64,000 nt of DNA from Longimicrobiales bacterium. Lineage in GTDB: Bacteria; Gemmatimonadota; Gemmatimonadetes; Longimicrobiales; RSA9. The translations under genes and the position numbers were made by a program. Shown here in pieces: positions 10,184 through 39,604 of the stretch (within the stretch, counting starts at the first letter, position 1; every line of letters starts with the position of its first letter). Under the pieces are notes generated by a model that was not told the origin of the DNA, did no database searches, and saw only the letters and a program-made list of their open reading frames with translations. The stretch covers positions 42,495 to 106,494 of the forward strand of contig JBOHRL010000053.1 of NCBI GenBank assembly GCA_050732695.1. The letters run 5' to 3'.

Positions 10184-10292
10184 GACACTTCTCCGGGACT
10201 GGGGACTCGAAGCGGTGACGATCACGCCTACGTTAGTCGGATCCCACGCTCCCGGCTATGCAGCCAATGACATGACGTCGGGTGAAGTGTGA

Positions 10293-21447: not shown

Positions 21448-22836
21448 TTACTGCTTCTTTTCGCTGGCACTGAGGCGAGCAAGGCGCCGCGCAAGGCGTA
21501 CGCGAACGGAATCATACTGCGCATCGGCGTGCCGGCTATCGAGCTGGTACGGATCCGTCGCGAGATCGTACAACTCGCGCTCGCCGGACTCGTATTCGGC
21601 GTACAGATAGCGGCGCGTCCGGACCGCGCGAACGGCCGGATTGATCCTCTGTCTGGTCCAGAGATTCTCGATGAGGATCGCGTCGCGTGCGAGAGCACCG
21701 TATCTCTCGATATGCGGAAGCAGACTCTGGCCGTCCATCGGCGAGGTTGGCGTGATGCCGGCCCAGTCGAGGAGGGTCGGCGCGATGTCGGCCATCTGAA
21801 CGAACGCCGTGTCGAGGCGTGGCTCGACGCCCGGCACACGGACGACGAAAGGAACGCGAACATCGTGGTCATACGCGGTTCCCTTGCGCCACCACAACCG
21901 GTGCTCGCCGAGAGCTATGCCGTTATCGCTCGTGTACAGAATGAACGTGCGATCCAGCCGTTCTCTCTCCGCGAGTCCGTTGATCACCGCTTCCACCATG
22001 CGATCGACCGCCTGCAACGACCCGCACATGCCACGCCAGATCGAGTCCGTCTGAAGATGCATTGCTCCGGTTGCCGGTTGCACCCTGCGGACGAACTGTG
22101 GCTTGTCCGACGTGTCGGTTTCGTCGTACGAAGCGCTTCGCGGCGGCTCGAGCTGCCGGCATGCGTCAACATCGCGCGGCGCCGGAAGTGACGGGCGGTG
22201 CGGCGCACTCGTCGCGACGACCAGGAAAACCGGCCGATTCTCCGGCAACCGCTTCAGAAACGCGACGATCTTGCCCGTCATGACATCGGTCGCGTAGTCG
22301 GACGGCGCACCCCCGTGCACGGTCTGCGTCACGACGCTATCCGGCCAGGTCCGCTCGACAAGCGTGTAGTCGTAATAGACGGAACGAGCCGGCACGTGCC
22401 ATTCGTCCCACCCCGGCGGAACGTGCGGCCATGGCTCGACCCGAGAGTACTCGTTCAACCACTTGCCACCGAAGTACGCAGTCAGATAGCCGCCTCGCTG
22501 GAGCCAGACACCAATCGTCCCCCGAGTGCTGAGTTCCATCGCACCGCCATCCGGCGGCACGTTGTTCAGGACCCCGTGGTTGTGCTGGTAGAGGCCGGTC
22601 AGGAACGTAGCCCGGCTCGGACAGCAGTTCGGCGTGTTCGCGAAGGCATGTGAGAACACGACTCCACTGTCCGCAAGCAGCGCCTTCGTCCGCGGCATGT
22701 ACTCGAGGAAGAGGTCGGCTCGCTGGTCATCGGTCAGAAATACGACAATGTCAGGCGGTGGCGGTCCATCCGGCTGGCACGCCAGGCCCAGCAGAACGAG
22801 CGCGGAAAAGGCGCCGCATCGCCGGCCAGAGATCAT
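21448..22836 (-). CDS. Sulfatase (formylglycine-dependent), lipoprotein
   Basis: ORF 21448..23496 trimmed to MISGRRCGAFSALVLLGLAC (ATG 22836-22834). IVVFLTDDQRAD and the CxPSR motif in TPNCCPSRATFLTGLYQHNHG are present. Confidence 0.9.
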   Translation of the reverse strand: MISGRRCGAFSALVLLGLACQPDGPPPPDIVVFLTDDQRADLFLEYMPRTKALLADSGVVFSHAFANTPNCCPSRATFLTGLYQHNHGVLNNVPPDGGAMELSTRGTIGVWLQRGGYLTAYFGGKWLNEYSRVEPWPHVPPGWDEWHVPARSVYYDYTLVERTWPDSVVTQTVHGGAPSDYATDVMTGKIVAFLKRLPENRPVFLVVATSAPHRPSLPAPRDVDACRQLEPPRSASYDETDTSDKPQFVRRVQPATGAMHLQTDSIWRGMCGSLQAVDRMVEAVINGLAERERLDRTFILYTSDNGIALGEHRLWWRKGTAYDHDVRVPFVVRVPGVEPRLDTAFVQMADIAPTLLDWAGITPTSPMDGQSLLPHIERYGALARDAILIENLWTRQRINPAVRAVRTRRYLYAEYESGERELYDLATDPYQLDSRHADAQYDSVRVRLARRLARLSASEKKQ

Positions 22837-23089
22837 GTCCACTCCGCTCCCGCGACGCTGGTCGCGAGTTCGCTTGCGCAACGATCGTGATTCCGTCGAA
22901 CGCTGCGGGAGGTATACAGAAACGGATGTACCGGCGTCAAGCGCGGGCGCGGTTCCGTTCCGTGTAACCAACACGCGCCTGGCGGGACCGGAACGAAGGC
23001 CGGTGCAAGCGCGCGTGCGGAACGTTGCCCGTGGTTGGCGGTTCGAATACCTTGCGCGTGGCTCGACGCTCCGATATCCGCACATCCTC

Positions 23090-25330
23090 ATGGCAGGCTC
23101 GATGCAAGACATGGCAAGGTCTGCGATGCGACTGCGCCGGCGGCAGTGGGCGATCTTCGTTACATGGCTGCCGGTTCTTGCGGCGTGCAGACCGGTCGCT
23201 CCGGCGGCAGCGCCATCCGTAGCTGAATCAGGCGTGGTCCGGCTCACGCCGGATCCGGATGTGGCGGATCTCGAGAGGCGTATCCGCGCCAGGATCGCGC
23301 TGGACGACAGTGCCGAAGTATCCGTGGCGATGGTCGATCTCGGAACGGGGCTGCGCCTCGAGATCGATGCGGACATCGTCATGCACGCAGCGAGCACGAT
23401 GAAGGTGCCGGTGATGCTGGAAGTATTCCGGCAGGCGGAAGCCGGCCGGCTCTCGCTCGACGAACCTCTCGCCGTTACCAACGAGTTCATGAGCATGGTC
23501 GGTGATACTGCGTACGTTTTGACCGCAGCATCCGACAGCGACTCGACTCTTTACGCGCGGATTGGCTCGACCGTACCCATTCGGGAACTCGTCCGGCTCA
23601 TGATCGTGCGCTCATCCAACCTCGCGCTCAATCTGCTGATCGGCCGTGTCGGAGCGGCGAGCGTGCGTACGACGATGGCCGAAATCGGCGCCGCAGAAAC
23701 GGTCGTACGCCGGGGCGTGCAGGACATACCGGCGTTCAACGCCGGTCTCAACAACACGACGACCGCACACGGCCTTGCCGTCGCGCTCGAGGCCATTGCC
23801 AGCTGTTCGATCACGCGCCGCACCGCCTGCAACGACATGACCGATGTCCTCGCCGCCCAGGAATTCAATGATATGATCCCGGCCGGCCTGCCCGCGCGCA
23901 CGCGTGTAGCACACAAGACTGGCTGGATCACCCGCATCCGGCATGATGGCGGCATCATCTTCCCGGGCACGCGGGCACCCTGGGTGCTCGTGGTCCTGAC
24001 TCGCGGCTTCGAAGATGCCGCCCGGGCGGATGCGCTCGGCGCAGACATCTCGCGCATGGTCTGGGAACAGCTCACGGACCCGGCCTTTGCCTCGATCGCG
24101 CGTCTCACTGATGACCACGCGCGTGACCTGGTCGAACTGCATGCGCGATTTCGAGTCGGTTCGCTGTCACAGCGACATTTCGGCCACGCCCAGCTCTGGA
24201 CGGCCATCGAGCCGTTCCTCGGGCGGCGCATCGAGCGTGAACCGATTGGAGAATCCGGAGAAGGACGGCAACTCAATCTGTTGCGCTACGGAAACGGACC
24301 CACTCGCGTACTGCTCTGGTCGCAGATGCACGGCGACGAGTCCACCGCAACCATGGCCATCGCCGATCTCATCCACTTCCTGGATGCAGCACCCGAGGAT
24401 CCGCGAGCACGCTCGTGGGCGGAACGTCTGACGCTCCTCATGGTGCCAATGGTCAATCCGGATGGCGCCGAGCGATTTCAGCGGCAGGACGCGTACGGCG
24501 TCGATGTGAACCGGGATGCGCGCGTCCTCGCCACACCCGAAGGCAAGGCGCTGAAATCCGTTCGCGATCAGTGGCAACCGCAGTTCGGCTTCAATCTGCA
24601 CGATCAGAACCCGCGCACCCGCGTCGGCTCGAGCGAGCGCCTCGCCGCCATCTCCCTCCTTGCACCCGCCGTCGACGAGAACGCCACGGCGACACCCGGC
24701 TTCATCGCTGCGAAGCACGTCGCTGCCACGATCCGCCGCGCCATTCAGCCACTGGTCGGCGGCTACATCACGCAGTATGACGACACGTTCAATCCGCGCG
24801 CGTTCGGTGATCTCATGCAGCAGTGGGGGACGACCACGGTTCTGATCGAGTCCGGTGGCTGGCACATGGACCCCGAGAAGCAGTACCTGCGCGCCGTCAA
24901 CTTCGTCGCACTGGTGAGTGCGCTGGACGCCATTGCCTCGGGCACATTCCGCGCCTCACCGGTCTCGCTCTATGAGGCATTGCCCGGCAACGGGCGCTCC
25001 GTCAACGATCTGCTCATCCGCGGCGGGACGCTTGTGCTGCGGGGACTTCCTCTCGCCCCGGTCGACATCGCTGCCAACTTCGACGGCGGCAGCGGCGGTC
25101 CGTGGCACGCGCGTATCACCGAAATCGGCGATCTCGCCGAGATCGTTGCTCGTGACACCATCGACGCCGGCGGTTTGTTTCTTCACCCGATCCTTCCGGA
25201 CTCGCTGGGCGCACCCGCGCTCGTGCCCGGGATGGAAGCTTCCTTTGTCGTGCGCCGAACCGCCTCGCCGGAAAGCGAAGGAATCTTCCGGATCGAACGT
25301 GGTAGAAAGCGGCCGATCGATCGTCGATGA
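23090..25330 (+). CDS. Fusion protein: class-A beta-lactamase-like serine hydrolase + M14 zinc carboxypeptidase, lipoprotein
   Basis: ORF 22634..25330 trimmed to ATG 23090 (23126 is also possible). The lipobox is WLPVLAAC. The N-terminal half has STMK (SxxK), SSN (SxN) and HKTGW (KTG). The C-terminal half has QMHGDE (HxxE), MVNPDG, DVNRD, FNLHDQ and LIESGGW. Confidence 0.8.
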   Translation: MAGSMQDMARSAMRLRRRQWAIFVTWLPVLAACRPVAPAAAPSVAESGVVRLTPDPDVADLERRIRARIALDDSAEVSVAMVDLGTGLRLEIDADIVMHAASTMKVPVMLEVFRQAEAGRLSLDEPLAVTNEFMSMVGDTAYVLTAASDSDSTLYARIGSTVPIRELVRLMIVRSSNLALNLLIGRVGAASVRTTMAEIGAAETVVRRGVQDIPAFNAGLNNTTTAHGLAVALEAIASCSITRRTACNDMTDVLAAQEFNDMIPAGLPARTRVAHKTGWITRIRHDGGIIFPGTRAPWVLVVLTRGFEDAARADALGADISRMVWEQLTDPAFASIARLTDDHARDLVELHARFRVGSLSQRHFGHAQLWTAIEPFLGRRIEREPIGESGEGRQLNLLRYGNGPTRVLLWSQMHGDESTATMAIADLIHFLDAAPEDPRARSWAERLTLLMVPMVNPDGAERFQRQDAYGVDVNRDARVLATPEGKALKSVRDQWQPQFGFNLHDQNPRTRVGSSERLAAISLLAPAVDENATATPGFIAAKHVAATIRRAIQPLVGGYITQYDDTFNPRAFGDLMQQWGTTTVLIESGGWHMDPEKQYLRAVNFVALVSALDAIASGTFRASPVSLYEALPGNGRSVNDLLIRGGTLVLRGLPLAPVDIAANFDGGSGGPWHARITEIGDLAEIVARDTIDAGGLFLHPILPDSLGAPALVPGMEASFVVRRTASPESEGIFRIERGRKRPIDRR

Positions 25331-26146: not shown

Positions 26147-26454
26147 GGATTCGAGACTCCTTGTTCTTCGCGTTGCTCGGTTCGGACGATGGTCGATCAA
26201 ACGAGTCCGTGAGGTCGAAAGAGACAATCCGAATCGCCGAGGCGCCAGTTTTGGGGACCTGTCACGCCGATGCCACGTCCGGGCGGCTGAGCGGACCCAC
26301 GCGGGCAAGCTGCCCTGACCGGGGCTGGCAGTCTGGCGTTCGAGCATGCAACTTCGGTCGAAGGTTTGAACAGCCGGGCCGATCTCGAGCGGGTTCTGAG
26401 CGATGACGGTGCCGGCGGCCGGGCGATCGGCGACGGATCCTCTCTGAACGGCAG

Positions 26455-29400
26455 TTGATCACCTTGCGATACGACGCCTTCATCTCCTACAGCCACGCAG
26501 CGGACCAGCGACTTGCACCGGAAGTCCAGTCCGCGCTGCACCATCTGGCCCGGCCATGGTACCGGCGACGGGCGCTGCACGTTTTTCGTGACAGCACGAG
26601 CCTTGCTGTTACGCCTGCGTTATGGCCGGCGATCGAGAAGGCCCTGCGCAATGCGCGCTTCTTCGTCTATCTCGCGTCTCCGGATGCGGCGCGCTCGGAG
26701 TGGGTGGCTCGCGAGATCGATTGGTGGCTTACGGATCGTGATGCCGGAACGCTGTTGATCGTGCTGACGGGCGGTGATCTCGAATGGGACGACGCCCGGT
26801 CCGACTTCGATGTGGAACGTTCCAGTGCGATCCCCGGCGTGCTGCATGGTGCGTTTCGAGATGAACCGCGCTACCTGGATCTGCGCTGGGCCAATCACCG
26901 CGACAATGTCTCGCTGCGTGTGCCGGCGTTCCGCGATGCGATGGCCACGCTCGCCGCCACGCTGCATGGCCGCGCCAAGGAAGACCTGGTCGGTGAGGAT
27001 GTGAGGCAACACCGCAGGACGATGCGCGTCGCTCGCACTGCGGCTGCACTCCTGCTCACCCTGACACTGGCGGCGGCGACTGCAACCGTCATCGCGACCG
27101 CGCAGCGCAACCTGGCCCTCGAACGACAGCGTCTCGCACTGAGCCGACAGCTCGCTGCCGAAGGAACCCTGACCGTCATCCGCTCACCCAATCGTCTACC
27201 GCTCGGACTTGCTCTCGCGGTCGAAGCTTTCCGACTTCATCCGGCTGCGGAAACGGAGCGCGCACTGCGTTCGCTCCTCTCACTCCGCCCGCAGCCGGTG
27301 CTCGAAATCGCTTCGTATGGCGATGTCCATCACGTCGCGCTGAGTCCGGACGGGCGCCGGTTCGTGACGGGCAGCGCGTTTCCCGGCGAGATTGCGATGT
27401 GGGCCGTTGCGGCACCCGACTCTCCGCCGGCACAGCGAACGGACGCCCCGGCGCCGCTGTGGAGGATCGTGACCGACGCTCCGGTGCGCGGACTCGCCTT
27501 GAGTCCTGGCGGAGACCGCGTCATCGCCGGTACTGGCATGATTGCCACCGTACGGAGCACAGAAACGGGAGATGAACTTCTGCGCCTCGAGACCGGAGAC
27601 AGCATATTGACGGTAGATTACCACCCTGCGGGATCACGAATCGCAACCGCAGGCAACGGCGGAGTCGTCCGCCTCTGGTCCAACGCGGACGGCCGCGAGC
27701 TTGGCGGCTACGGTCACGGCCGCGATTACGAAGCCGTCCAGCCAGCGCTGTCTCGCGTCGCGCAGGACATCGGCGAATCTTTCCGTGCAGTGCGTGTCGT
27801 TGCGTTCTCGCCGGATGGGCAGTGGCTCGCGTCGATCGATGAAGATGGCGTGTTCTGCATCGCCCGCGGGTTGGACGCCGGTGACCCTCTGTGCCGCTTC
27901 ACGGGCGGCATCGGACTCCACCTCGCGTGGGCCCCGGATGGCCGGCGAGTCGTGACCGTCGCGGAAAACGTCGCCAGCATCTGGGCGCTCGCGGGAGATG
28001 GGCCGATTACGCGCGTCGAACACGTCGATGCGGCAGGCGATCTGCCAACTGCGATATTCGGCTGGCTCTGGGAAGCCGCTTTCAGCCCAGACGGCCGGTG
28101 GATCGCGACGGCCGGCCGCGATTTCTCTGCGCGCGTCTGGGATGCAGCGACGGGGCGCGAGATTGCACGAATGCGGCACGCCAGTGCAGTCAATGCCGTT
28201 CGCTTCAGTCCCGACGGCGCGAGCCTCGCCACGGCTTCCGAAGATGGGACAGTGCGCGTGTGGGATCCCCTGCGCGGCATCGAGCGGTTGCGCGGAACAC
28301 ACGAAGGCGGCGCGTTGACACTCGCGTTCGACCGGACGGGGCGCCGCCTCGCGTCAGGATCCCGTGATGGCACGGCGACCATCTGGGGCCTCACAGGCGG
28401 CGATCAGGTTCTGACTCTCTTCCACCAGCGACCGGTCGAGAGCGTCGCTGTGAGCGAAGATGGCTCGCGTATCGCGACACTCGACAACGAAGGATGGATC
28501 GGCGTCTGGAGTGCAACGGGCGGCGCGCGTCTCACCGCGATACGCCCGCCGGGCCTGCGCGCCGATCGCGTCGCCTTCGCTGCGACCAACAACGAACACC
28601 TCATCTCATGGCGCTCCGATGATCCCTACCTCCTTCGACCCGCTGCTGGCGGCGCTCTCGAGGCCAGCCGTCTGCTCGATCGCGCTGCATCGCCGGCCGT
28701 CATCGTCGGAACGCGTCGCGTCATCGCGGAGACCGACTCCGGGATCGTCGTGTTCTCGACGTTGAGCGGCGATACGTTGACGCGCGTGCACGCACCCGCA
28801 TTCACAGGGACCGCATCATTGAGCGATGATGAGCAGTATCTCGCACTCGAAAGTGATGCGGGCGTGCTTCGTGTGCTCGAACTGCCGGCAGGACGCGATG
28901 TCACTCACTTGACGCTCGGGTCAGGCGCGGAGTCGGCGAGCGCGAACATTGGTGGCGACGAAACGGTCCCTTCACGAGCGAACGGCTCCAATGCGGCTCC
29001 CCGGGTCGATGCGCTCGACGTGGCAAGCGGCGGGCAGTTCATCGCCGCTGTCATCGACAACACGTTGCGCATGTGGCGGCGCGCAGAGCCCGGTGTCGTT
29101 GCCATCGGTATCGAACAGCCCGACACATCGGATCTGATCGCATTCACAAGATCCGGCCGGTTCCTGATCTCCATTCGCTGGCAGGGTGAAGAGATCGTCG
29201 TCAGGGAAAGCGACACCGGCCGCATCGTGAGCAGACTCGCACACCCGGCAACCGTAGATGTCGTGCGATCCTCGCAAGGCGGCGATTTCGTCGCCACGAT
29301 CAGTGACGGCCGCGTGCGCGTCTGGGAACTCGAGACCGGCTACCTCGCCCTCGAGCTGGGAAGCGAAACGGGCTATTATTCCGATGTCCGGTTCGCGCAG

Positions 29401-29571
29401 GACGATCGCTACCTGGTCACTGCTGCGAGCAACGGCGAAGCCGTGCTGCGCCTGTGGCGGGGTGAAGACCTGCTGTCGGCCGCATGCTCACGTCTGCTCG
29501 CACCACTCTCGCGCGAGCAGTGGGCGGTCAACCTCGGCAATCTTCCGTATGACCCGGCGTGCGCTCGATGA
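26455..29571 (+). CDS. TIR domain - hydrophobic (TM-like) helix - WD40 double-propeller protein
   Basis: The TTG start is the only start codon available; an in-frame stop lies at 26404-26406. YDAFISYSHAAD...FFVYLASPDAARSEWVAREIDWW is a TIR fold with a SARM1-like WVxxEI glutamate (E87, nt 26713-26715). The hydrophobic segment is RVARTAAALLLTLTLAAATATVIATA. At least 12 WD40-type blades follow (SPDGxxhAT/S..DGTVRVWD). Confidence 0.85.
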   Translation: MITLRYDAFISYSHAADQRLAPEVQSALHHLARPWYRRRALHVFRDSTSLAVTPALWPAIEKALRNARFFVYLASPDAARSEWVAREIDWWLTDRDAGTLLIVLTGGDLEWDDARSDFDVERSSAIPGVLHGAFRDEPRYLDLRWANHRDNVSLRVPAFRDAMATLAATLHGRAKEDLVGEDVRQHRRTMRVARTAAALLLTLTLAAATATVIATAQRNLALERQRLALSRQLAAEGTLTVIRSPNRLPLGLALAVEAFRLHPAAETERALRSLLSLRPQPVLEIASYGDVHHVALSPDGRRFVTGSAFPGEIAMWAVAAPDSPPAQRTDAPAPLWRIVTDAPVRGLALSPGGDRVIAGTGMIATVRSTETGDELLRLETGDSILTVDYHPAGSRIATAGNGGVVRLWSNADGRELGGYGHGRDYEAVQPALSRVAQDIGESFRAVRVVAFSPDGQWLASIDEDGVFCIARGLDAGDPLCRFTGGIGLHLAWAPDGRRVVTVAENVASIWALAGDGPITRVEHVDAAGDLPTAIFGWLWEAAFSPDGRWIATAGRDFSARVWDAATGREIARMRHASAVNAVRFSPDGASLATASEDGTVRVWDPLRGIERLRGTHEGGALTLAFDRTGRRLASGSRDGTATIWGLTGGDQVLTLFHQRPVESVAVSEDGSRIATLDNEGWIGVWSATGGARLTAIRPPGLRADRVAFAATNNEHLISWRSDDPYLLRPAAGGALEASRLLDRAASPAVIVGTRRVIAETDSGIVVFSTLSGDTLTRVHAPAFTGTASLSDDEQYLALESDAGVLRVLELPAGRDVTHLTLGSGAESASANIGGDETVPSRANGSNAAPRVDALDVASGGQFIAAVIDNTLRMWRRAEPGVVAIGIEQPDTSDLIAFTRSGRFLISIRWQGEEIVVRESDTGRIVSRLAHPATVDVVRSSQGGDFVATISDGRVRVWELETGYLALELGSETGYYSDVRFAQDDRYLVTAASNGEAVLRLWRGEDLLSAACSRLLAPLSREQWAVNLGNLPYDPACAR

Positions 29572-29573
29572 GT

Positions 29574-30698
29574 TCATGCAGTCTGGCGAAGAGCCGACTT
29601 CGCTACTCGGGCGCGCAGTGCTGCGGGCTCGATCAAACGTGCATCGGCGCCGTACTTCAGTACATGGCGCACGATCCAGTTCGGATCCGCAACACCATGT
29701 CTCACGAGCACTCCGCCGTCCGCCACCGGCTCGCAATCGAACCGCTCTTCGATCCAGCGCGCAATGCGCGCGGAATAATGTACGGTTGCGATCACTTCAT
29801 GGTCAGGCGACCGATAGACGCTACCAGCCGCTGTTAACCAATCCGACGCATCGAAATCGGACGGCGCATCGAACGGCTCGTCCGTCACGTCCACCTTCAT
29901 CATGCGATCCATTCGAAAGGCCCGGACTTCGCCGCGATCCGCATCGTGCGCAAGCACGTACCACGCGCCGGACGCGTACACCAGCTGATACGGCGCAATG
30001 GTGCGAAGCGAAGGTTCAGCATCACCTGGCTTCAGGTACGTCACCTGACAGAGCAACCGATCTCTGGCGGCATCGGCAAACTCCGACCGGAACCCGTCCT
30101 CACCCACATCGACGGACACCGGATCTCGAGCCCGCGGTGCCAGAGCGTGGAACGAGGCCGCTCGTTCGGAAGGTCGACCGATGCTCGGCGGGACGGCCGG
30201 ACGTTCGCGGACACGGGGTGAATCGTCGCCGTACTCAACCTGCGGCTCCTCACATACCCACCCCCGCAACAGAAGGTGCGGCGCGCGCACCTCGGTCGGG
30301 GCGCCGGCTTCACCGATCGATATGACCACTTCGTCCTCGAGCTTGCGCGCGAGGGCGAGGATCTGTGATCTGCGCGGGCCCTCCGCCTCGCACGCGAGCA
30401 TGCGGAGCCCGAGGCCAAGTGCAAGACCTTCGCTTGGCGTCAGCTTTGCCGGCCGCTTGAAATCGCCAACCGACCAGATTTCGACGCGGCCGTTCTCGAT
30501 CATGATCTGGAGCTGATCCGCGACACCGGGCGGATGGTAGAACGCACGAGCAGTGATCTCCGTGAGATCGCCCAGGATCCGCGCCGGGTCACACGAGAGA
30601 ACGCGCGCCAGCTCCTCGATCGTAACACCGCCTTGCCGCATCGCCCGCGGCAGGATGTAGAGGATGCGGTCGAGCCGTTCCAACGCGGATTCAGCCAT
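29574..30698 (-). CDS. WYL-domain transcriptional regulator (PafC-like, second of a pair)
   Basis: ORF 29574..31025 trimmed to MAESALERLDRILYILP (ATG 30698-30696), which overlaps the upstream stop within ATGGCTGA. An N-terminal wHTH is followed by the WYL core IAPYQLVYASGAWYVLAHDADRGEVRAFRMDRM and a C-terminal extension. Confidence 0.85.
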   Translation of the reverse strand: MAESALERLDRILYILPRAMRQGGVTIEELARVLSCDPARILGDLTEITARAFYHPPGVADQLQIMIENGRVEIWSVGDFKRPAKLTPSEGLALGLGLRMLACEAEGPRRSQILALARKLEDEVVISIGEAGAPTEVRAPHLLLRGWVCEEPQVEYGDDSPRVRERPAVPPSIGRPSERAASFHALAPRARDPVSVDVGEDGFRSEFADAARDRLLCQVTYLKPGDAEPSLRTIAPYQLVYASGAWYVLAHDADRGEVRAFRMDRMMKVDVTDEPFDAPSDFDASDWLTAAGSVYRSPDHEVIATVHYSARIARWIEERFDCEPVADGGVLVRHGVADPNWIVRHVLKYGADARLIEPAALRARVAKSALRQTA

Positions 30699-31881
30699 CG
30701 GCGCCTCGCACCCCGCCGGGCTCACCGGCCGGATCAACGGGACCGTGCGCCGCGGCGACATCCCGTGCCAGCGCGGCCAGTGTTTCCGCGAGTTCGGGCG
30801 GATCGAGGACCACGGCATCGCCTTCCTGGCTGAGCAGCCAGCGTAGAAAAGGCGAAACCTGTCGCACCTCGAATGCGCGCACTGCGTCACCACCGGCGCG
30901 CTCTTCGATGAGTGTACCGATCTGATTGCGGGCCGCGGACAGCGAAGCAGGCCAACGGAAGAGGATGCGAGCGTGCATGGTAGGTTCGTCCTCCGCGCCA
31001 AGCTCCCATGCTTCACGGCCGGCAAAATCGTCCAGTCGGAAGTCGGCAGGTCGCTCGAAATCCGGCGTGTTGGGCGAACGTGTGTTGATCACTACGTCCT
31101 CCATTCGCTCGGCACGGAACACGCGAATTGCAGCGCGGCCGCGATCGTGACCGACGAGATACCAGTGGCCATGGTGGAACAGCAAGCCGTACGGCTCGAC
31201 ATCCCGGTCCGTCGTCTCGCCACGGTGCATGCCATGATAACGGAAGGTTACGTGTTTGCGGGCGACCAGGGCGTCGGACAGGGAGCGGAGGCGGTCGAGC
31301 AGAGCCGAGGTTTCGGGTCGCTCGACGAACAGAACCGGCGTATGATCTCGAAACGCATCCGGATCGAGATCGAACGCGAGTTTGCGAAAGGCAGACCTCG
31401 CCTCGGCTGCCAGCGGAAAAGCCGGCACATCGGCCACGCGCGCGAGTGCCTCGAGCGCAAGCCTTGCGTCGGCCCTGGTGATCTCCGTTTCCTGGACCTG
31501 GGGCCGCGCACTCTGCGGATCTGCTCGACTGTGTGGCTTCCGGCCTTCAGCGCGCTCCGGCGCCGTGGCTTCTTCAACCAGACGCAAGTATGGCAGATAG
31601 AAATCGCGACGATCGATGCGATAGCCGTCGATCTGCTCGAGTCCGAAATTGATGGAATAACGAACCGTCTGGAGTGGAATCCCGTGGTCGCGCAGCTCGT
31701 CCTTGTCGCGCTCGAACATGCGCCGCACGGTCGCCTGCGCTGTTTCGTCGTCTGGATCCCACTTCTCGCCGTACGCCGGCAGGTGTTGGAGCAGATCCTC
31801 GAACGGAACCGGTAAGCGACGAGAGACCAGAAACGCGATCAGGTCGATCCAGCGCTGCAATTTCGTGATTCGTTCCGGCAT
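30691..31881 (-). CDS. WYL-domain transcriptional regulator (PafB-like, first of a pair)
   Basis: MPERITKLQRWIDLIAFLVSRRLPVPFEDLL is the wHTH. The WYL core is VEPYGLLFHHGHWYLVGHDRGRAAIRVFRAERM. A C-terminal WCX-like region is present. Confidence 0.85.
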   Translation of the reverse strand: MPERITKLQRWIDLIAFLVSRRLPVPFEDLLQHLPAYGEKWDPDDETAQATVRRMFERDKDELRDHGIPLQTVRYSINFGLEQIDGYRIDRRDFYLPYLRLVEEATAPERAEGRKPHSRADPQSARPQVQETEITRADARLALEALARVADVPAFPLAAEARSAFRKLAFDLDPDAFRDHTPVLFVERPETSALLDRLRSLSDALVARKHVTFRYHGMHRGETTDRDVEPYGLLFHHGHWYLVGHDRGRAAIRVFRAERMEDVVINTRSPNTPDFERPADFRLDDFAGREAWELGAEDEPTMHARILFRWPASLSAARNQIGTLIEERAGGDAVRAFEVRQVSPFLRWLLSQEGDAVVLDPPELAETLAALARDVAAAHGPVDPAGEPGGVRGADG

Positions 31882-31956: not shown

Positions 31957-32985
31957 TCAATCTGGGATGGCGAGACCTCGCCGTCCATGGTCGCGTGCCA
32001 GGCCGTTACCCGGAAACGCGCTCAGATGAACGACACGCGCAGGCGCTATGGCATCGTCAACCAGTTCGCCGCCGATGACCGCACCCGTAAGGATGGAGTA
32101 TGTGCCGCACCCGACGGATGGCGCACTCACACGTTCTGCGTCACGGACGGATTCGAGAAAGCGGCGGGCTGCGCCCGGAGCATGCGCGGGCTGTGCAGCG
32201 CGGATGCCTCGGTCCGGGTCGAGTTCCCCGCCCTCTTCCACGCCAGAATCGCGAGGGATCCCAGGCGTGCCTTCGAGCGCATCGAGCACGTAGCCGCGCA
32301 GCAGCCGCTCGTGCAACTGCGCGTAGAGCGATCGACCGCCGATCACATCGAGGCCGACCGGCTCGTCATTGACGAGACCGAGGAGGCCGACCTGGCCATC
32401 GACGACGGAGAACGAGCGGACGAATGCAGCGATATCGTTCGAGGCATGGTCGAAGGCCTGGTCGAGTGCGTCCGTCGGCGACCGATCGGACAGGTGATCG
32501 AACAGCTCGCGGATCTCGCCCCAGACCTCGCCCTGCGCCCGTGCGAGCAGACCTTCGGCGTCGCTCGTGCCCGCTGCGGCCGCGCGCGCCTCGACTTCCC
32601 GTGTCTTGCGCCGAACCTTCGCCGGCGAGTGCTGCGGTGCCGGCTTGAAGTCTTCCGAGACAGAGCGCCAGCGGCCGCGCTCCATGCACGACACGGGGAT
32701 CTCCGTCGCCGACTGCTTTGCCAGCAGGATCGATCGGCTCGTCATACGGTTCTGAAGCGCGCCAATCAGCTGCTCGCCGTCCAGGATGAGGACATCACGG
32801 TCAGACGCGTTCTTCGCGTAAAGCAGGGGCACCGTACCACCTCGAGCCTCCGTGATGCGCACCAGCCCGCCAGCCAGCGCATCGGCAAGCAGAGTGTACG
32901 GCAGTTCGACATCATCCGACGTGAGGAGGGGAACGATGGTCAGTGCCTTGTGCCGCTGTGGTGGGCCGGTCCGGATGTCGAGCAT
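31957..32985 (-). CDS. Conserved hypothetical protein, ARPP-1/DUF6569-like (assignment from memory only)
   Basis: HKALTIVPLL..., VRITEA..GTVPLLYAKNASDRDVLILDGEQLIGALQNRMTSRSILL...IPVSCMERGRWRS and the C-terminal VVHLSAFP match my recollection of the DUF6569/ARPP-1 pattern (LLLDGEELvGAKQNRvlN...PVSCVEqGRW). No HMM search was run. Confidence 0.6.
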   Translation of the reverse strand: MLDIRTGPPQRHKALTIVPLLTSDDVELPYTLLADALAGGLVRITEARGGTVPLLYAKNASDRDVLILDGEQLIGALQNRMTSRSILLAKQSATEIPVSCMERGRWRSVSEDFKPAPQHSPAKVRRKTREVEARAAAAGTSDAEGLLARAQGEVWGEIRELFDHLSDRSPTDALDQAFDHASNDIAAFVRSFSVVDGQVGLLGLVNDEPVGLDVIGGRSLYAQLHERLLRGYVLDALEGTPGIPRDSGVEEGGELDPDRGIRAAQPAHAPGAARRFLESVRDAERVSAPSVGCGTYSILTGAVIGGELVDDAIAPARVVHLSAFPGNGLARDHGRRGLAIPD

Positions 32986-36545: not shown

Positions 36546-39500
36546 ATGCGTTCACGCAGTCACGCACTCGGTGGGTATCTAGCGTTGCTGCTCGCCGCGA
36601 CCCCGGCGCTGGCCCAGCAAACGGGCGGCACGATCCAGGGCACGGTCACGGCAGCCGCGACCCAACTTCCACTCGGATCGGTACAGGTCTACATCCCGGC
36701 AACGGGGATCGGCTCGCTGACGAACCGGGAGGGGCAGTTCACACTGACGAATGTGCCTGCGGGCGAGCACGTCGTGCGTGTTCAGTCCCTGGGCTACACG
36801 TCGGCGCAGCAGAGCGTGACGGTCGCAAGTGGTCAGGCGGCCACGGCCAATTTTGCGCTCGAGGAAACGGCCGTCGCGCTGGACGAGATCATCGTGACCG
36901 GTACGGCGACGCAGGTCCGCAAGAAAGAGATCGGCAACAGCATTGCCGCGATCAGCGTTCGCGAGATCGAGAACGTGCCGATCAACAACGCACAGGAGGT
37001 GCTGGCCGGGCGGGCGCCGGGCGTCACCTTCATGGCGAACAGCGGCCAGCCGGGTGCGGGCGGCACGATCAAGATTCGCGGCATCAACTCGGCGTCTCAG
37101 GACGCTGAACCGCTTCTGTACATCGATGGCGTGCGCGTGTTCAACGAATCGACGCGCGCGGGCTGGGGCGGCCGCACGACGACGTCGCCGCTCCAGGACA
37201 TCTCACCCGACGACATCGCAAGGGTGGAGGTCGTGAAGGGCGCCGCAGCGACCACACTGTACGGCACGGAAGCCTCGAACGGTGTGATCCAGATTTTCAC
37301 CAAGAAGGGCATCGCAGGGCCTACGCAGTGGTCGGCCGAGGCGAGCTACGGCGGCAACCAGGCCAGCCGCTGGTCTGCGGATGACGATCCGACGGAGCAG
37401 TTCGTCAACTGCGGCCTGACCGACATGATGTACAGTCTGGATCTCGCGGGCAGCGACCGGGGCGAGAAGGTGTACTTCGTTGATCCGACCTGCCCTTCGA
37501 GCGGCAAGTGGACGCGGACCGGGCTCTCGCAACGCTACTCGCTGTCCGTTCGCGGCGGCGCCGAGCGTCTCTCGTACTTCATCTCCGGCAACTACAACAA
37601 CGAGGACGGCTATATCGAAACGATGAACTCGAAGGATGGCGGTTTCCGCGCCAACTTCGGATTCGCGCCGATCGATCCGTTGAACATTTCCTTCAACAGC
37701 GCCTACACGCGGCGTGATACGCGGTGGCTCGCCGATGGAAACAACGCCGAAGGCTTCCTGCTCAATGTCGGCCGCGGCGCTGCCGGCTACATGAAGGGCG
37801 GCAAGGGCGAGGATTGTGCGGGCGTCCCCGATGAGGTCGTGTGCGCCACGAACGGCTACGTCCTCGACAGCCAGAACTTCACGCGCTCGAACCACTTCAT
37901 GTCGGGTCTGACGATCAATTACACGCCGGTCACCAACTTCACGAACCGGCTGATCGTCGGGTTCGACTACACGGACATCAACAACGAGACGACGCTGCCC
38001 TTCGGATACCTGACGCTGCCGCAGGGCTACTACTGGGACGAGAACACCGACCACACGAAGGTCTCGCTCGACTACGCAGCCACACTCACGCACCAGTTCG
38101 GATCGTCCGTCGCGTCGAACTTCTCCTTCGGCGGCCAGATTTTCCGGGACCGCCACCGCTGGACGGAGATTGACGTGCAGAGTTTCGCCGGCCCGGGTGA
38201 GCCAACGCTGGAATCGGGCGCGGAGTTGACCTACCGCGCGGATCAGCCGTTCACGGAGACGAACGCTGGTTTCTTCGCGCAGGAACTGCTCGGGATCAGC
38301 GACCAGCTCTTCATCACGGCCGGCCTGCGCGTCGACGGGAACAGCGCGTTCGGTGACGACTTCGGGCTTCAGGCGTATCCGAAGGTGAGCGCTTCCTACG
38401 TGCTCTCGGATCTCGCCGCCTGGCCGACCGGGTGGTGGGACGCGATGAAGATCCGTGCGGCCGTTGGTGAATCGGGCAAGGCGCCGGGTGCGTTCGACAA
38501 GGTTCGCACGTGGAGCCCCGTCTCCGGCGACGACGGTGAGCCGGGCTTCACGCCGGGCGATATCGGGAACGACGAGGTCGGCCCGGAGCGCACCCGCGAG
38601 ATCGAGGCCGGTTTCGATGCCAGCTTCGGTCAGGGCCGGCTCGGAATCGAGTTCACGGCGTTCCAGGCTCGCACGATCGACGCGCTGATCGGTGTCAACT
38701 ATCCGCCCTCCGCCGGGTTCACTGCGGCCCGGACGGAGAACGTGGGCGAACTCGAGAACAAGGGGCTCGAGGCAGCCATCACACTCGGCCTGCTTCGCAC
38801 TGCCAACGTCGACTGGCGATTCCGCTTCAGCGGCTCGATCCTCAGCAGCGAGGCGATCGACCTCGATGGCGGCAAGCCGGACACCACGACGATCTCGACC
38901 GGCCTCAATTCCTACATCCGCGAAGGTTACGCCTTCCCGATGTACTTCGGCACGCGGTTGCTCAACCCGGACGAGGCCGGCAACGAACAACTCGTGTCCG
39001 ACACGGCCCTGGGTCGCGTCTACCCGAACCGCATCTTCGGCTTCGGTACGACCCTCACGCTGATGCAGAATCTCACCATTGACGCGCTCGCCGAGTTCCA
39101 GGGTGGCCACGTCGTACAGAACTACACCGGCTACCAGAGCGCGCGGCGAGGCTCGTGGTTCCCGTGTTATGCGACGCAGGAGAAGATCATCGCGTTCCTT
39201 GACGGCAATTCGAGTGCTCTCGACGGCGTCCCGAACATCGATCGGGCCCGCTGCGCCATCGGCTCGCCGGGCGCCTCCTCGACGGTCCCGGGCAGCACGA
39301 TCGGTTATGACACCGGGTTCTGGACCGAGAAGGGCGACTTCCTCAAGCTGCGCCAGATTTCCGTGACGTGGCAGCTGCCCGAAAGCATTGTGTCGCGCTT
39401 CGCGAACAGCGCGTCCATTACTTTGGCCGGTCGCAACCTCCTGACCCTGACTGACTACACAGGCGCAGATCCGGAGTCCATGGACGGCACCGACCAGTTC

Positions 39501-39596
39501 AACCTGGTCGGCAACAGCGGCAGCTTCGGCCGCCGCGACTACTATCAACTGCCGCCCACGCGGTCGTTCCTGCTGACCACCCGGATCACGTTCTGA
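36546..39596 (+). CDS. SusC/RagA-type TonB-dependent outer-membrane receptor
   Basis: The SD aggagagga precedes the ATG. After the signal comes a carboxypeptidase-regulatory-like domain (GTIQGTVT...VPAGEHVVRVQSLGYT). The plug region reads LDEIIVTGTATQ...IKIRGINS. The C-terminus ends LLTTRITF with an aromatic residue. Confidence 0.92.
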   Translation: MRSRSHALGGYLALLLAATPALAQQTGGTIQGTVTAAATQLPLGSVQVYIPATGIGSLTNREGQFTLTNVPAGEHVVRVQSLGYTSAQQSVTVASGQAATANFALEETAVALDEIIVTGTATQVRKKEIGNSIAAISVREIENVPINNAQEVLAGRAPGVTFMANSGQPGAGGTIKIRGINSASQDAEPLLYIDGVRVFNESTRAGWGGRTTTSPLQDISPDDIARVEVVKGAAATTLYGTEASNGVIQIFTKKGIAGPTQWSAEASYGGNQASRWSADDDPTEQFVNCGLTDMMYSLDLAGSDRGEKVYFVDPTCPSSGKWTRTGLSQRYSLSVRGGAERLSYFISGNYNNEDGYIETMNSKDGGFRANFGFAPIDPLNISFNSAYTRRDTRWLADGNNAEGFLLNVGRGAAGYMKGGKGEDCAGVPDEVVCATNGYVLDSQNFTRSNHFMSGLTINYTPVTNFTNRLIVGFDYTDINNETTLPFGYLTLPQGYYWDENTDHTKVSLDYAATLTHQFGSSVASNFSFGGQIFRDRHRWTEIDVQSFAGPGEPTLESGAELTYRADQPFTETNAGFFAQELLGISDQLFITAGLRVDGNSAFGDDFGLQAYPKVSASYVLSDLAAWPTGWWDAMKIRAAVGESGKAPGAFDKVRTWSPVSGDDGEPGFTPGDIGNDEVGPERTREIEAGFDASFGQGRLGIEFTAFQARTIDALIGVNYPPSAGFTAARTENVGELENKGLEAAITLGLLRTANVDWRFRFSGSILSSEAIDLDGGKPDTTTISTGLNSYIREGYAFPMYFGTRLLNPDEAGNEQLVSDTALGRVYPNRIFGFGTTLTLMQNLTIDALAEFQGGHVVQNYTGYQSARRGSWFPCYATQEKIIAFLDGNSSALDGVPNIDRARCAIGSPGASSTVPGSTIGYDTGFWTEKGDFLKLRQISVTWQLPESIVSRFANSASITLAGRNLLTLTDYTGADPESMDGTDQFNLVGNSGSFGRRDYYQLPPTRSFLLTTRITF

Positions 39597-39604
39597 GCGG
39601 AGGC

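What the first reader, a model, noticed from the sequence alone, without database searches (positions are those of the whole stretch)
26455..29571. TIR protein with Toll-like-receptor-style topology and no NTPase module
The architecture read from the sequence has three parts:
- a TIR domain (aa 5-140);
- a linker ending in RQHRRTMRVAR, followed by a 25-residue hydrophobic helix (aa about 193-216);
- SRQLAAEG...LALAVEAFRL, followed by at least 12 WD40 blades, enough for two propellers.

There is no NACHT/NB-ARC ATPase between effector and repeats, so this is not an Avs/STAND-type sensor. By the positive-inside rule the TIR domain would be cytoplasmic and the propellers extracytoplasmic. That is the same logic as an animal TLR (repeat ectodomain, TM, TIR), but with the domains in the inverted order.

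The ORF can only start at a TTG. An in-frame stop lies at 26404-26406, no ATG or GTG is available, no SD is present, and the TIR fold begins 5 codons after the TTG. This suggests deliberately weak translation of a potentially toxic effector.
Basis: partly seen in the sequence, partly recalled or inferred. Interest (0 to 1): 0.65.

Follow-up and report, generated by a model that had tools for sequence, protein, structure and literature searches.

The report
Membrane-anchored TIR protein with outward-facing propeller sensor
This gene encodes a typical member of a very widespread but unstudied bacterial protein family in which a probable NAD-cleaving "TIR" domain inside the cell is joined by a single membrane helix to two large propeller domains predicted to lie outside the inner membrane, which resembles an animal Toll-like receptor with the domain order reversed.

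Summary
Window 26455-29571 (+) is a real 1038-aa gene from a Longimicrobiales (Gemmatimonadota) MAG. It encodes a TIR domain with an invariant candidate catalytic Glu (E87), then one 22-residue hydrophobic helix, a conserved helical linker, 16 WD40 blades (two propellers) and a small C-terminal cap with two invariant cysteines. There is no NTPase.

The protein is not unusual within its family. At least 547 species-representative genomes from seven or more phyla encode the same architecture, and databases label it only "TIR domain-containing" or "WD40 repeat" protein.

New here: the helix-linker-WD40-cap unit is the same one found behind nSTAND1 STAND NTPases that carry caspase, trypsin, kinase or TIR heads. 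This protein is therefore the NTPase-less relative of a STAND sensor class.

Topology is inferred, not shown. Four observations favour a cytoplasmic TIR and periplasmic propellers:
- the K/R bias across the helix is family-wide;
- the apolar core is 22-24 residues long;
- AlphaFold2 predicts one isolated 69-residue helix;
- the cysteines after the helix come in conserved pairs.

Adjacent paralogs keep the TIR at 91-98% identity while the propellers fall to 52-57%, as in receptor families.

The idea that the TTG start reflects deliberately weak translation is not supported. I found no published description of this design. Verdict: new variant of a known kind, moderately high interest.

The parts
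26455..26457 (+). TTG start codon. A second in-frame TTG at 26464-26466 is used in one NCBI record.
   Evidence: There is an in-frame stop at 26404-26406 and no other canonical start between it and 26455.
26467..26967 (+). TIR domain (aa 5-171) with the S81-x-W83-x-x-x-E87 motif. E87 (26713-26715) is the candidate catalytic Glu.
   Evidence: Pfam TIR_2 scores 36.3 bits. AlphaFold2 pLDDT is above 90 and the Foldseek hits are TIR domains. E87 is invariant and aligns with the Glu of AbTir and TcpB.
26977..27183 (+). Single continuous helix, aa 175-243. It contains the conserved Arg-rich juxtamembrane motif GEDVRQHRRTxRLA (aa 180-194), the hydrophobic core, and the coil after it.
   Evidence: AlphaFold2 predicts helix 175-243 in both models. 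The motif is conserved in homologs.
27037..27102 (+). Predicted transmembrane segment, aa 195-216 (TAAALLLTLTLAAATATVIATA).
   Evidence: Kyte-Doolittle 2.07. The uncharged core is 22 residues here and has a median of 22-24 in the family. K+R is higher on the N-terminal side in 47 of 60 and 49 of 60 members. Nearly all full-length members have exactly one such helix.
27103..27285 (+). Conserved helical linker and cap after the membrane helix (aa 217-277; QRN.A..QR..A.SRQLAA...LALAVEAFRL...). It is shared with nSTAND1 proteins.
   Evidence: Linker profiles A2 and A3. The exhaustive search found 9,492 cluster representatives at E<=1e-3. In 81 of 92 top hits checked the linker follows a hydrophobic helix directly.
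27292..29454 (+). Tandem WD40 beta-propellers, aa 280-1000, about 16 blades. This region contains C468 and C480.
   Evidence: Pfam WD40 families; 13 repeat units by self-built HMM; 64 strands in the AlphaFold2 model; Foldseek hits are tandem WD40 propellers such as 2ymu, Apaf-1 and Aip1.
29461..29568 (+). C-terminal two-helix cap with an invariant Cys pair (C1011, C1036). The family motif is AC..(G/N)RNLT..EW..Y.P..PY..TC.
   Evidence: C1011 and C1036 are invariant in 61 full-length homologs. 47 of 60 genome loci have C-x(20-32)-C in the last 70 aa. nSTAND1-class proteins carry the same cap. No Pfam model matches it.
29569..29571 (+). Stop codon. The convergent PafC-like ORF ends 2 nt downstream, at 29574.

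Best explanation
The gene encodes a stand-alone, single-pass membrane sensor-effector. The N-terminal TIR domain, a probable NAD+-cleaving enzyme with catalytic Glu E87, sits in the cytoplasm close to the inner face of the membrane, held there by a rigid helix that continues as the one transmembrane segment. The C-terminal part lies in the periplasm and acts as the variable sensor. It comprises the helical linker, two WD40 propellers and a cap that is probably disulfide-bonded.

Proposed mechanism: a ligand at the cell envelope binds or cross-links the propellers. This brings the transmembrane helices together, and with them the TIR domains. TIR self-association then switches on NAD+ cleavage, causing either NAD+ depletion and growth arrest or death, or production of a signal nucleotide. 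The logic is that of a conflict or immunity receptor.

In evolutionary terms, this is the NTPase-less form of the [effector]-nSTAND1-TM-linker-WD40 proteins.

Shown here: the domain content, the conservation of E87, conservation of the helix as a hydrophobic segment rather than as a sequence, the shared module with nSTAND1 proteins, the absence of a partner gene, and the faster divergence of the sensor.

Inferred: the topology, the NADase activity, activation by clustering, and the biological role.
For: TIR domain:
- Pfam match above the gathering cutoff.
- Confident AlphaFold2 TIR fold, with TIR domains as the top PDB matches.
- E87 is invariant and aligns with the Glu of the W-x-x-x-E motif in AbTir and TcpB.

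Membrane helix:
- Every full-length relative has one hydrophobic 19-residue window (Kyte-Doolittle 1.8-3.2) at about aa 186-247. The sequence varies, and a conserved Arg-rich motif precedes it.
- The uncharged core has a median length of 22-24 residues.
- K+R is higher on the TIR side in 47/60 and 49/60 members, with one reversal in each set (Wilcoxon p about 1e-9).
- AlphaFold2 predicts it as part of a single 69-residue helix, not buried in a domain.

Exported C-terminal region:
- The Cys count after the helix is even in 50 of 60 members and exactly 2 in 34.
- C1011 and C1036 are invariant.
- The window protein has two closely spaced pairs, 468/480 and 1011/1036.
- Short TIR-TM forms carry their own conserved Cys pair in the tail.

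Receptor-like evolution:
- Adjacent paralogs have 91-98% identical TIR domains but only 52-57% identical propellers.
- Family-wide, TIR identity is 54-57% and propeller identity 31-35%.

Single-gene system: no conserved neighbour across 80 loci.

Shared module: the linker profile finds [caspase / trypsin / Pkinase / TIR / none]-nSTAND1-helix-linker proteins.

Precedent for the design: Ser/Thr kinases in Planctomycetota are predicted to have a cytoplasmic kinase, one transmembrane helix and periplasmic WD40 arrays (PMC11032199).
Against: - No experiment supports the topology, and no dedicated topology predictor could be run.
- The window protein's own K+R bias is weak (5 versus 4), and the net-charge bias across the family is modest.
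- G-beta-type WD40 domains are classically cytoplasmic.
- In STAND relatives a membrane between the NTPase and the sensor is unorthodox, because STAND sensors normally contact the NTPase directly.
- Cysteine is also scarce in the cytoplasmic TIR domain (0.24% versus 0.41% after the helix), so low Cys content is not specific to the exported part. Most of the even-number signal comes from the single conserved pair.
- The gene is not in a recognisable defence island in this window; only generic WYL regulators match PADLOC.
- The protein matches no PADLOC system model well.
- The family is absent from the phage collection and rare on plasmids.
- The ligand is unknown.
Confidence: 0.62

Rival explanations
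1. The protein is a soluble or peripheral cytoplasmic sensor. The hydrophobic helix does not cross the membrane. It forms the core of a homo-oligomeric helical bundle or dips into the inner leaflet, so that TIR and WD40 are both cytoplasmic and the propellers sense an intracellular ligand, as in Apaf-1 or Avs-type sensors.
For: The same helix-linker-WD40 unit follows nSTAND1 NTPases, and in classical STAND proteins the sensor and NTPase share a compartment. G-beta-type WD40 domains are usually cytoplasmic. The propellers resemble those of Apaf-1.
Against: The core is 22-24 uncharged residues with Kyte-Doolittle scores up to 3.2, and it is conserved only in hydrophobicity. It is flanked by an Arg cluster with a consistent K/R asymmetry. 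There is exactly one such segment per protein. The cysteines after the helix are paired. AlphaFold2 places the segment in an exposed single helix.
Confidence: 0.12
2. The topology is as proposed, but the protein is a housekeeping envelope or signalling protein, not an immune or suicide effector. The TIR would act as a protein-interaction scaffold or a low-level NAD-derived signal generator, reporting envelope state, cell-cell contact or development.
For: The gene is chromosomal, is not in a defence island here, is absent from phages and rare on plasmids. The family is very widely and vertically spread in soil bacteria with large genomes. Kinase-TM-WD40 analogues are regarded as signalling proteins.
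Against: The catalytic-type Glu is invariant. Sibling proteins with the same sensor module carry caspase, trypsin and TIR heads, which are typical of conflict systems (PMC8195603). There are multiple paralogs per genome, and the propellers diverge much faster than the TIR.
Confidence: 0.2
3. The topology is reversed: the TIR domain faces outward and the propellers are cytoplasmic.
For: Nothing specific. The window protein's own flank charges are nearly balanced (5 versus 4 K+R).
Against: There is no N-terminal signal peptide, because the TIR fold starts at residue 5. Family-wide, K+R is higher on the TIR side with one exception in each set of 60. The TIR substrate NAD+ is cytoplasmic (established knowledge). 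The cysteine pairing is on the WD40 side.
Confidence: 0.02

Closest known systems
nSTAND1 STAND-NTPase conflict proteins (Pfam PF20703; Kaur et al. 2021, PMC8195603)
   Same: They have the same C-terminal unit: one hydrophobic helix preceded by an Arg cluster, a homologous helical linker, tandem WD40 propellers and the AC..RNLT..EW..PY..TC cap. Some carry an N-terminal TIR (L034 and P0304/P0365-type proteins).
   Different: The window protein has no NTPase; its TIR is joined directly to the helix. The papers I read do not mention a membrane helix between nSTAND1 and the repeats.
Bacterial TIR NADase effectors (AbTir, TcpB/BtpA, ThsB, TIR-STING, TIR-SAVED, SPARTA TIR-APAZ)
   Same: TIR fold, the S-x-W-x-x-x-E motif and an invariant Glu. 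Activation by oligomerisation is the expected shared logic (established knowledge for these systems).
   Different: None of these is a single-pass membrane protein with a large extracytoplasmic repeat domain. This gene has no partner such as ThsA, a cyclase or an Argonaute.
Animal Toll-like receptors
   Same: A repeat-built ectodomain, one transmembrane helix and a cytoplasmic TIR, with signalling presumed to start by ligand-induced receptor association.
   Different: The order is reversed (N-in, type II versus type I). The ectodomain is WD40 propellers, not LRRs. The TIR looks enzymatic, not a pure adaptor. Apart from the TIR domain there is no homology, so this is an analogy and not membership. 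A 2024 survey states that such TLR features seem absent from bacterial TIR systems (PMC11350192).
Bacterial receptor Ser/Thr kinases with periplasmic WD40/TPR arrays (Planctomycetota; PMC11032199), and PknD-type kinases with an extracellular beta-propeller
   Same: A cytoplasmic enzyme, a single transmembrane helix and a C-terminal periplasmic propeller array, with the topology predicted in the same way.
   Different: The output domain is a kinase, not a TIR. I did not test homology of the linker or cap for these kinases. One kinase-nSTAND1-helix-linker protein (P0358) does carry the same linker.
Apaf-1 / Avs-type STAND sensors with WD40 or TPR sensors
   Same: A tandem WD40 double propeller as the presumed ligand sensor, and an effector-plus-sensor organisation within one polypeptide.
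   Different: There is no NTPase, and a membrane helix separates the effector from the sensor.

Membership tests
TIR domain superfamily (Pfam TIR_2, PF13676) | Profile match above the curated gathering score | tested here: met
   36.3 bits against a cutoff of 28, covering aa 9-105.
TIR domain superfamily (Pfam TIR_2, PF13676) | Flavodoxin-like TIR fold | tested here: met
   AlphaFold2 pLDDT 91.7. The top Foldseek PDB hits are all TIR domains (MAL, TLR1, L6, AbTir, BtpA, SPARTA), with target-normalised TM-scores of 0.5-0.68.
Catalytic (NADase-type) TIR domains | Conserved catalytic Glu in the W-x-x-x-E motif of helix alpha-C | tested here: met
   E87 is invariant in alignments A1 (55 sequences) and A4 (61 sequences) and aligns with the Glu of AbTir WTNYELD and TcpB WPARELD. 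That these residues are the catalytic Glu is from my own knowledge of the literature. A 3D superposition could not be inspected.
Catalytic (NADase-type) TIR domains | Measured NAD+ cleavage | not testable with these tools
   Requires an enzyme assay.
Thoeris (ThsB) | Adjacent ThsA-type effector gene (SIR2/SLOG or Macro/TM) | tested here: not met
   The neighbours are a NicO-like protein, PafB/PafC-like WYL regulators and an ARPP-1 protein. No neighbour is conserved across 80 loci. The PADLOC ThsB match is only E=0.015.
STAND/NLR-like sensors (Avs, bNACHT, nSTAND1) | Central STAND NTPase domain | tested here: not met
   Pfam, NCBIfam and PADLOC find no NTPase. The AlphaFold2 model goes directly from TIR (5-171) to the helix (175-243).
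STAND/NLR-like sensors (nSTAND1 class) | C-terminal helix-linker-WD40-cap module of nSTAND1 proteins | tested here: met
   The linker profile hits nSTAND1 proteins at E of about 1e-13 to 1e-17, with the helix directly upstream and the same Cys-pair cap.
Toll-like receptors | LRR ectodomain, signal peptide, type I topology, C-terminal TIR | tested here: not met
   The repeats are WD40, there is no signal peptide, and the TIR is N-terminal. The resemblance is in design only.
Single-pass (bitopic) membrane proteins, N-in | One apolar helix of about 20 residues, with more K/R on the cytoplasmic flank | tested here: met
   The core is 22 residues. Family-wide, K+R is higher on the N-terminal side in 47/60 and 49/60 members. 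There is one helix per protein.
Single-pass (bitopic) membrane proteins, N-in | Experimentally determined membrane insertion and orientation | not testable with these tools
   Requires reporter fusions, fractionation or protease accessibility. No dedicated topology predictor was available.

The most novel reading that the evidence does not exclude
Bacteria have a large, previously unrecognised class of true transmembrane pattern-recognition receptors. Their periplasmic or extracellular WD40 propellers detect a threat at the cell envelope, for example an adsorbing phage, a contact-dependent toxin or a foreign cell, before anything enters the cytoplasm. They signal through one transmembrane helix to a cytoplasmic TIR NADase, or, in sibling proteins, to an nSTAND1 NTPase carrying a caspase, trypsin or kinase head. 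That would be a bacterial counterpart of Toll-like receptors that arose independently, and the first 'transmembrane STAND' proteins.
Probability: 0.3. Interest if true: 0.85.

Novelty: new variant of a known kind. Interest (0 to 1): 0.6.

Why it matters
Nearly all bacterial TIR and STAND immune sensors characterised so far detect their triggers inside the cell. A 2024 survey states explicitly that TLR-like features such as transmembrane domains seem absent from bacterial TIR systems (PMC11350192).

If the topology inferred here holds, thousands of proteins would be outside-in receptors that couple an extracytoplasmic repeat sensor to a cytoplasmic death or signalling enzyme. The linker module alone has 9,492 cluster representatives at 50% identity, and at least 547 species carry the TIR form.

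This would make two questions directly testable: whether bacteria sense threats at the envelope with dedicated receptors, and how a TIR or STAND module can be switched on across a membrane. The TIR form is the simplest version, one gene with no NTPase and no partner, and is therefore the best entry point for experiments. Cultured Streptomyces, Actinoplanes, Nonomuraea, Mycolicibacterium and Mesorhizobium strains carry homologs.

Tried and rejected
1. Exact look-up of the protein in the assembly index found nothing. The source was identified later through a neighbouring gene and cluster look-ups.
2. The word-indexed homolog search with the 70-aa linker profile returned only fragments of 50-120 aa. 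That tool seems to favour targets about as long as the query, so it gave no architecture information. I replaced it with a local hmmsearch of the fetched loci and the exhaustive HMMER search.
3. I looked for family members whose region after the helix carries a domain known to be extracytoplasmic. All ten divergent members tested are also WD40 propellers, so this says nothing about topology.
4. Conserved-neighbour clustering over 80 loci found no partner gene. The largest cluster consists of antisense or paralogous WD40 ORFs.
5. PADLOC on the protein and on ten neighbours gave no system-level match; only generic WYL hits appeared.
6. Tandem Repeats Finder found no internal DNA repeats in the WD40 region, so there is no sign of recent repeat homogenisation. 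The promoter and terminator scan gave nothing usable.
7. Phage collection: no hit. Plasmids: 7 records, all large replicons.
8. Five literature searches and seven papers gave no description of a TIR-TM-WD40 protein or of a membrane helix in nSTAND1 proteins. The library covers open-access papers only, so this is not proof that none exists.
9. I considered Cys depletion as evidence of export and rejected it, because the TIR domain is at least as Cys-poor. Only the pairing and conservation argument is kept.
10. I considered that an Actinobacteria-specific stalk might span the cell wall. Only the Actinoplanes/Spirilliplanes members have the roughly 200-aa coiled coil, so this does not hold for the phylum.


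Full report
**1. What is in the sequence**

The ORF 26455-29571 (+) exists exactly as described: 1038 aa with a TTG start. An in-frame TGA lies at 26404-26406, and none of the 16 codons between it and 26455 is ATG, GTG or TTG. A second in-frame TTG lies three codons downstream, at 26464. One NCBI record starts there (P0157, 1035 aa). Another holds the 1038-aa form, MGH7501968.1, named 'MAG: TIR domain-containing protein [Longimicrobiales bacterium]'. The window therefore comes from a Gemmatimonadota MAG, which is a diderm lineage. Third-position GC of the ORF (0.72) is at the low end for this window. Homology and structure prediction leave no doubt that it is a real gene.

**2. Domains**

- The N-terminus matches Pfam TIR_2 above its gathering score (36.3 against 28 bits) and ThsB_TIR (28.1).
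- The rest is covered by WD40-type families, and Pfam, NCBIfam and PADLOC find no NTPase.
- An AlphaFold2 model of aa 1-307 (mean pLDDT 91.7) and a full-length model (pLDDT 88.8, pTM 0.76) agree on the layout:
  - a TIR fold at aa 5-171;
  - one uninterrupted helix at aa 175-243;
  - two short cap helices, at aa 245-261 and 265-277 in the full-length model;
  - 64 beta-strands between aa 280 and 1000, which is 16 four-stranded blades, enough for two propellers;
  - two C-terminal helices at aa 1003-1013 and 1020-1027.
- Foldseek against the PDB returns only TIR domains for the N-terminal model (MAL, TLR1, L6, SPARTA, AbTir, BtpA). For the full-length model it returns tandem WD40 double propellers (2ymu, Apaf-1, Aip1, Utp21).
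- A repeat HMM built from the protein itself finds 13 units.

**3. The candidate catalytic residue**

In alignments of 55 N-terminal and 61 full-length homologs, S11, Y12, S13, S81, W83, E87 and W91 are invariant. In phmmer alignments to solved TIR domains, '..SEWVAREIDWW..' aligns with '..KDWTNYELDGL..' of AbTir and '..KQWPARELDGL..' of TcpB/BtpA. E87 falls on their Glu. From my own knowledge, that is the catalytic Glu of NADase-type TIRs (E208 in AbTir). I could not inspect a 3D superposition, and enzyme activity is inferred.

**4. The hydrophobic segment**

In the window protein, GEDVRQHRRTMRVAR is followed by a 22-residue uncharged stretch, aa 195-216. Its best 19-residue window scores 2.07 on the Kyte-Doolittle scale.

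- Every full-length relative has a comparable segment (Kyte-Doolittle about 1.8-3.2) at the same place. The sequence is not conserved but the hydrophobicity is, and the well-conserved motif GEDVRQHRRTxRLA precedes it.
- In 80 genome loci, nearly all complete genes have exactly one such segment.
- The uncharged core has a median length of 22-24 residues.
- K+R in the 15 residues on the TIR side exceeds the C-terminal flank in 47 of 60 and 49 of 60 members, with one reversal in each set (Wilcoxon p about 1e-9).
- The window protein's own count is only 5 versus 4, so the orientation argument rests on the family and not on this one sequence.
- AlphaFold2 puts the segment in the middle of an isolated 69-residue helix, not inside a globular core.

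**5. Cysteines**

Of 60 full-length genomic members, 50 have an even number of Cys after the helix and 34 have exactly two. In 47 of them a C-x(20-32)-C pair lies in the last 70 residues, within the motif AC..(G/N)RNLT..EW..Y.P..PY..TC.

C1011 and C1036 are invariant in the 61-sequence alignment. The window protein's other two Cys (468 and 480) are 12 residues apart in one blade. Short family members (about 270-285 aa, consisting of TIR, helix and a tail of about 55 aa) have their own conserved pair.

This fits disulfides in an oxidising compartment, but it is only suggestive. The TIR domain is equally Cys-poor, and most of the even-number signal comes from the one conserved pair.

**6. The family**

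- A pattern scan of one genome per species found at least 547 confirmed loci. They lie in Actinomycetota (Streptomyces, Actinoplanes, Nonomuraea, Mycolicibacterium and others), Acidobacteriota, Gemmatimonadota, Verrucomicrobiota, Pseudomonadota, Nitrospirota and Desulfobacterota.
- Complete genes are mostly 880-1170 aa.
- Full-length relatives in the protein collection are plentiful and are named only 'WD40 repeat protein' or 'TIR domain-containing protein'.
- Divergent members that my single-sequence search missed are also WD40 propellers.
- No neighbouring gene is conserved, and in this window the neighbours are unrelated: a NicO-like protein, a beta-lactamase/M14 fusion, PafB/PafC-like WYL regulators and an ARPP-1 protein.
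- The family is absent from the phage collection and rare on plasmids.
- Adjacent paralogs are common.

**7.

A profile of the 70-residue linker after the helix, searched against DNA already fetched, picked up L034 4738-7683. That protein reads TIR_2 - nSTAND1 (440 bits) - hydrophobic helix preceded by RRRRVR - the same linker - WD40.

The exhaustive HMMER search with the linker profile found 9,492 cluster representatives at E<=1e-3 and 1,073 at E<=1e-10. Of the 92 longer top hits I checked (out of the 150 listed), 81 have a hydrophobic helix directly before the linker and 82 have exactly one such helix overall.

All eight long-class proteins that I scanned with Pfam, in which the linker lies at aa 548-916, are [none / caspase / trypsin / Ser-Thr kinase] - nSTAND1 - helix - linker; a TIR head occurs in the L034 protein. 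They end in the same Cys-pair cap.

So the helix-linker-WD40-cap unit is the standard C-terminal part of nSTAND1 proteins, which Kaur et al. 2021 place among conflict systems (PMC8195603). The window protein is the form in which the TIR is joined to it without the NTPase.

**8. Receptor-like evolution**

In two adjacent paralog pairs the TIR domains are 91% and 98% identical, while the propeller regions are 52% and 57% identical. In three other pairs the figures are 49-61% against 34-35%. Across the family the window protein shares 54-57% identity in the TIR and 31-35% in the propellers.

**9. Start codon**

Both possible starts are TTG, and no Shine-Dalgarno motif lies upstream. However:
- many homologs begin 2-5 residues before the same YxAFxSYSH motif;
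- the start codon nearest that motif is ATG in roughly half of the 80 loci, with the rest GTG or TTG;
- about two thirds of genes in this window lack a Shine-Dalgarno-like motif, and several have GTG or TTG as the first start codon of their ORF, although those starts are only approximate.

Nothing suggests selection for weak translation.

**10. Interpretation**

The best-supported reading is a single-gene bitopic receptor: a cytoplasmic TIR that is probably an NADase, one transmembrane helix, and a periplasmic double-propeller sensor with a probably disulfide-stabilised cap. Ligand-driven clustering would bring the TIR domains together, as in other TIR enzymes that need self-association. The rigid helix joining the TIR (which ends at aa 171) to the membrane core (which starts at aa 195) fits direct mechanical coupling.

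A published analogue exists for kinases: Planctomycetota Ser/Thr kinases with a predicted cytoplasmic kinase, one transmembrane helix and periplasmic WD40/TPR arrays (PMC11032199).

The rivals are a non-spanning helix with a cytoplasmic sensor, a housekeeping signalling role, and reversed topology. All three are less likely, for the reasons given under each.

**11. Novelty**

I found no description of TIR-TM-WD40 proteins, or of a membrane helix in nSTAND1 proteins, in the papers searched. A 2024 survey remarks that TLR-type membrane features seem absent from bacterial TIR systems.

The components are all known, and the sequences are already in databases under generic names. What is new is the arrangement and what it implies. 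I therefore rate it a new variant of a known kind, with moderately high interest that depends on experimental confirmation of the topology.

Noticed in passing
window 29574-31025 (-) and 30691-31881 (-): A PafC-like (HTH_PafC + WYL + WCX) and PafB-like (WYL + WCX) regulator pair lies convergent with the TIR gene. The two convergent stop codons are only 2 nt apart (29571 and 29574). The listed ORFs overlap by 335 nt, but HTH_PafC begins at aa 115, so the true PafC-like start is probably near 30698.
   Followed up: partly
window 31957-32985 (-): An ARPP-1 family protein (PF20208, 239 bits) sits next to the WYL pair. An exact copy occurs on a 15-kb Logan contig from SRR27067781.
   Followed up: partly
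window 54696-59282 (-): A 1527-aa protein combines SF1 helicase domains (AAA_11/AAA_12) with a C-terminal REase_MTES_1575 nuclease-like domain.
   Followed up: no
window 22634-25330 (+): One long ORF contains both a class-A beta-lactamase-like domain (Beta-lactamase2) and an M14 carboxypeptidase domain. The first roughly 200 aa of the listed ORF look non-coding, so the true start is probably internal.
   Followed up: no
window 6815-10225 (-), 36546-40834 (+): A tricorn-like protease with PD40 propellers, and a SusC/SusD-like TonB-dependent receptor pair. These are ordinary envelope genes of a diderm and agree with the Gemmatimonadota assignment.
   Followed up: no
L029 7995-8852, L031 157-969 (and P0072): Short family members (270-285 aa) consist of the TIR, the membrane helix and a tail of about 55 aa with its own conserved Cys pair (..LC..(35 aa)..NC..). 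They have no propellers.
   Followed up: partly
L044, L058, L060, L063-L065, L067, L069, L072, L075, L077, L080 (Actinoplanes/Spirilliplanes): These members have a Gln/Glu/Ala/Arg-rich coiled coil of about 200 residues inserted between the membrane helix and the linker, which looks like a stalk. In two adjacent paralog pairs (L044, L058) the TIR domains are 91-98% identical while the propellers are 52-57% identical.
   Followed up: partly
L008, L009, L010, L030, L034, L043 (C-termini): An alternative C-terminal cap has a CxxC motif (..C.VCGS..LL.LA..R..R.LT..ER..YL) in place of the C-x(~25)-C cap.
   Followed up: no
L082 (Streptomyces cynarae plasmid NZ_CP106794.1) 4586-8772: In this annotated example the TIR-TM-WD40 gene is preceded by a NUDIX hydrolase and a 213-aa hypothetical protein whose stop overlaps the TIR start by 4 nt. 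NUDIX enzymes act on ADP-ribose, so a link is conceivable, but this is a single case.
   Followed up: no
L066 11442-13850 (-) and three other loci: An ORF of about 800 aa near the family gene in four loci has an N-terminal motif (ADLVIADVT..NPNVFYELGIRHA) reminiscent of TIR-like or nucleoside deoxyribosyltransferase-like domains.
   Followed up: no
P0278 (4487 aa): This giant protein matches the linker profile in 13 separate stretches (E=4.6e-35), so the linker unit can itself occur as a repeat.
   Followed up: no
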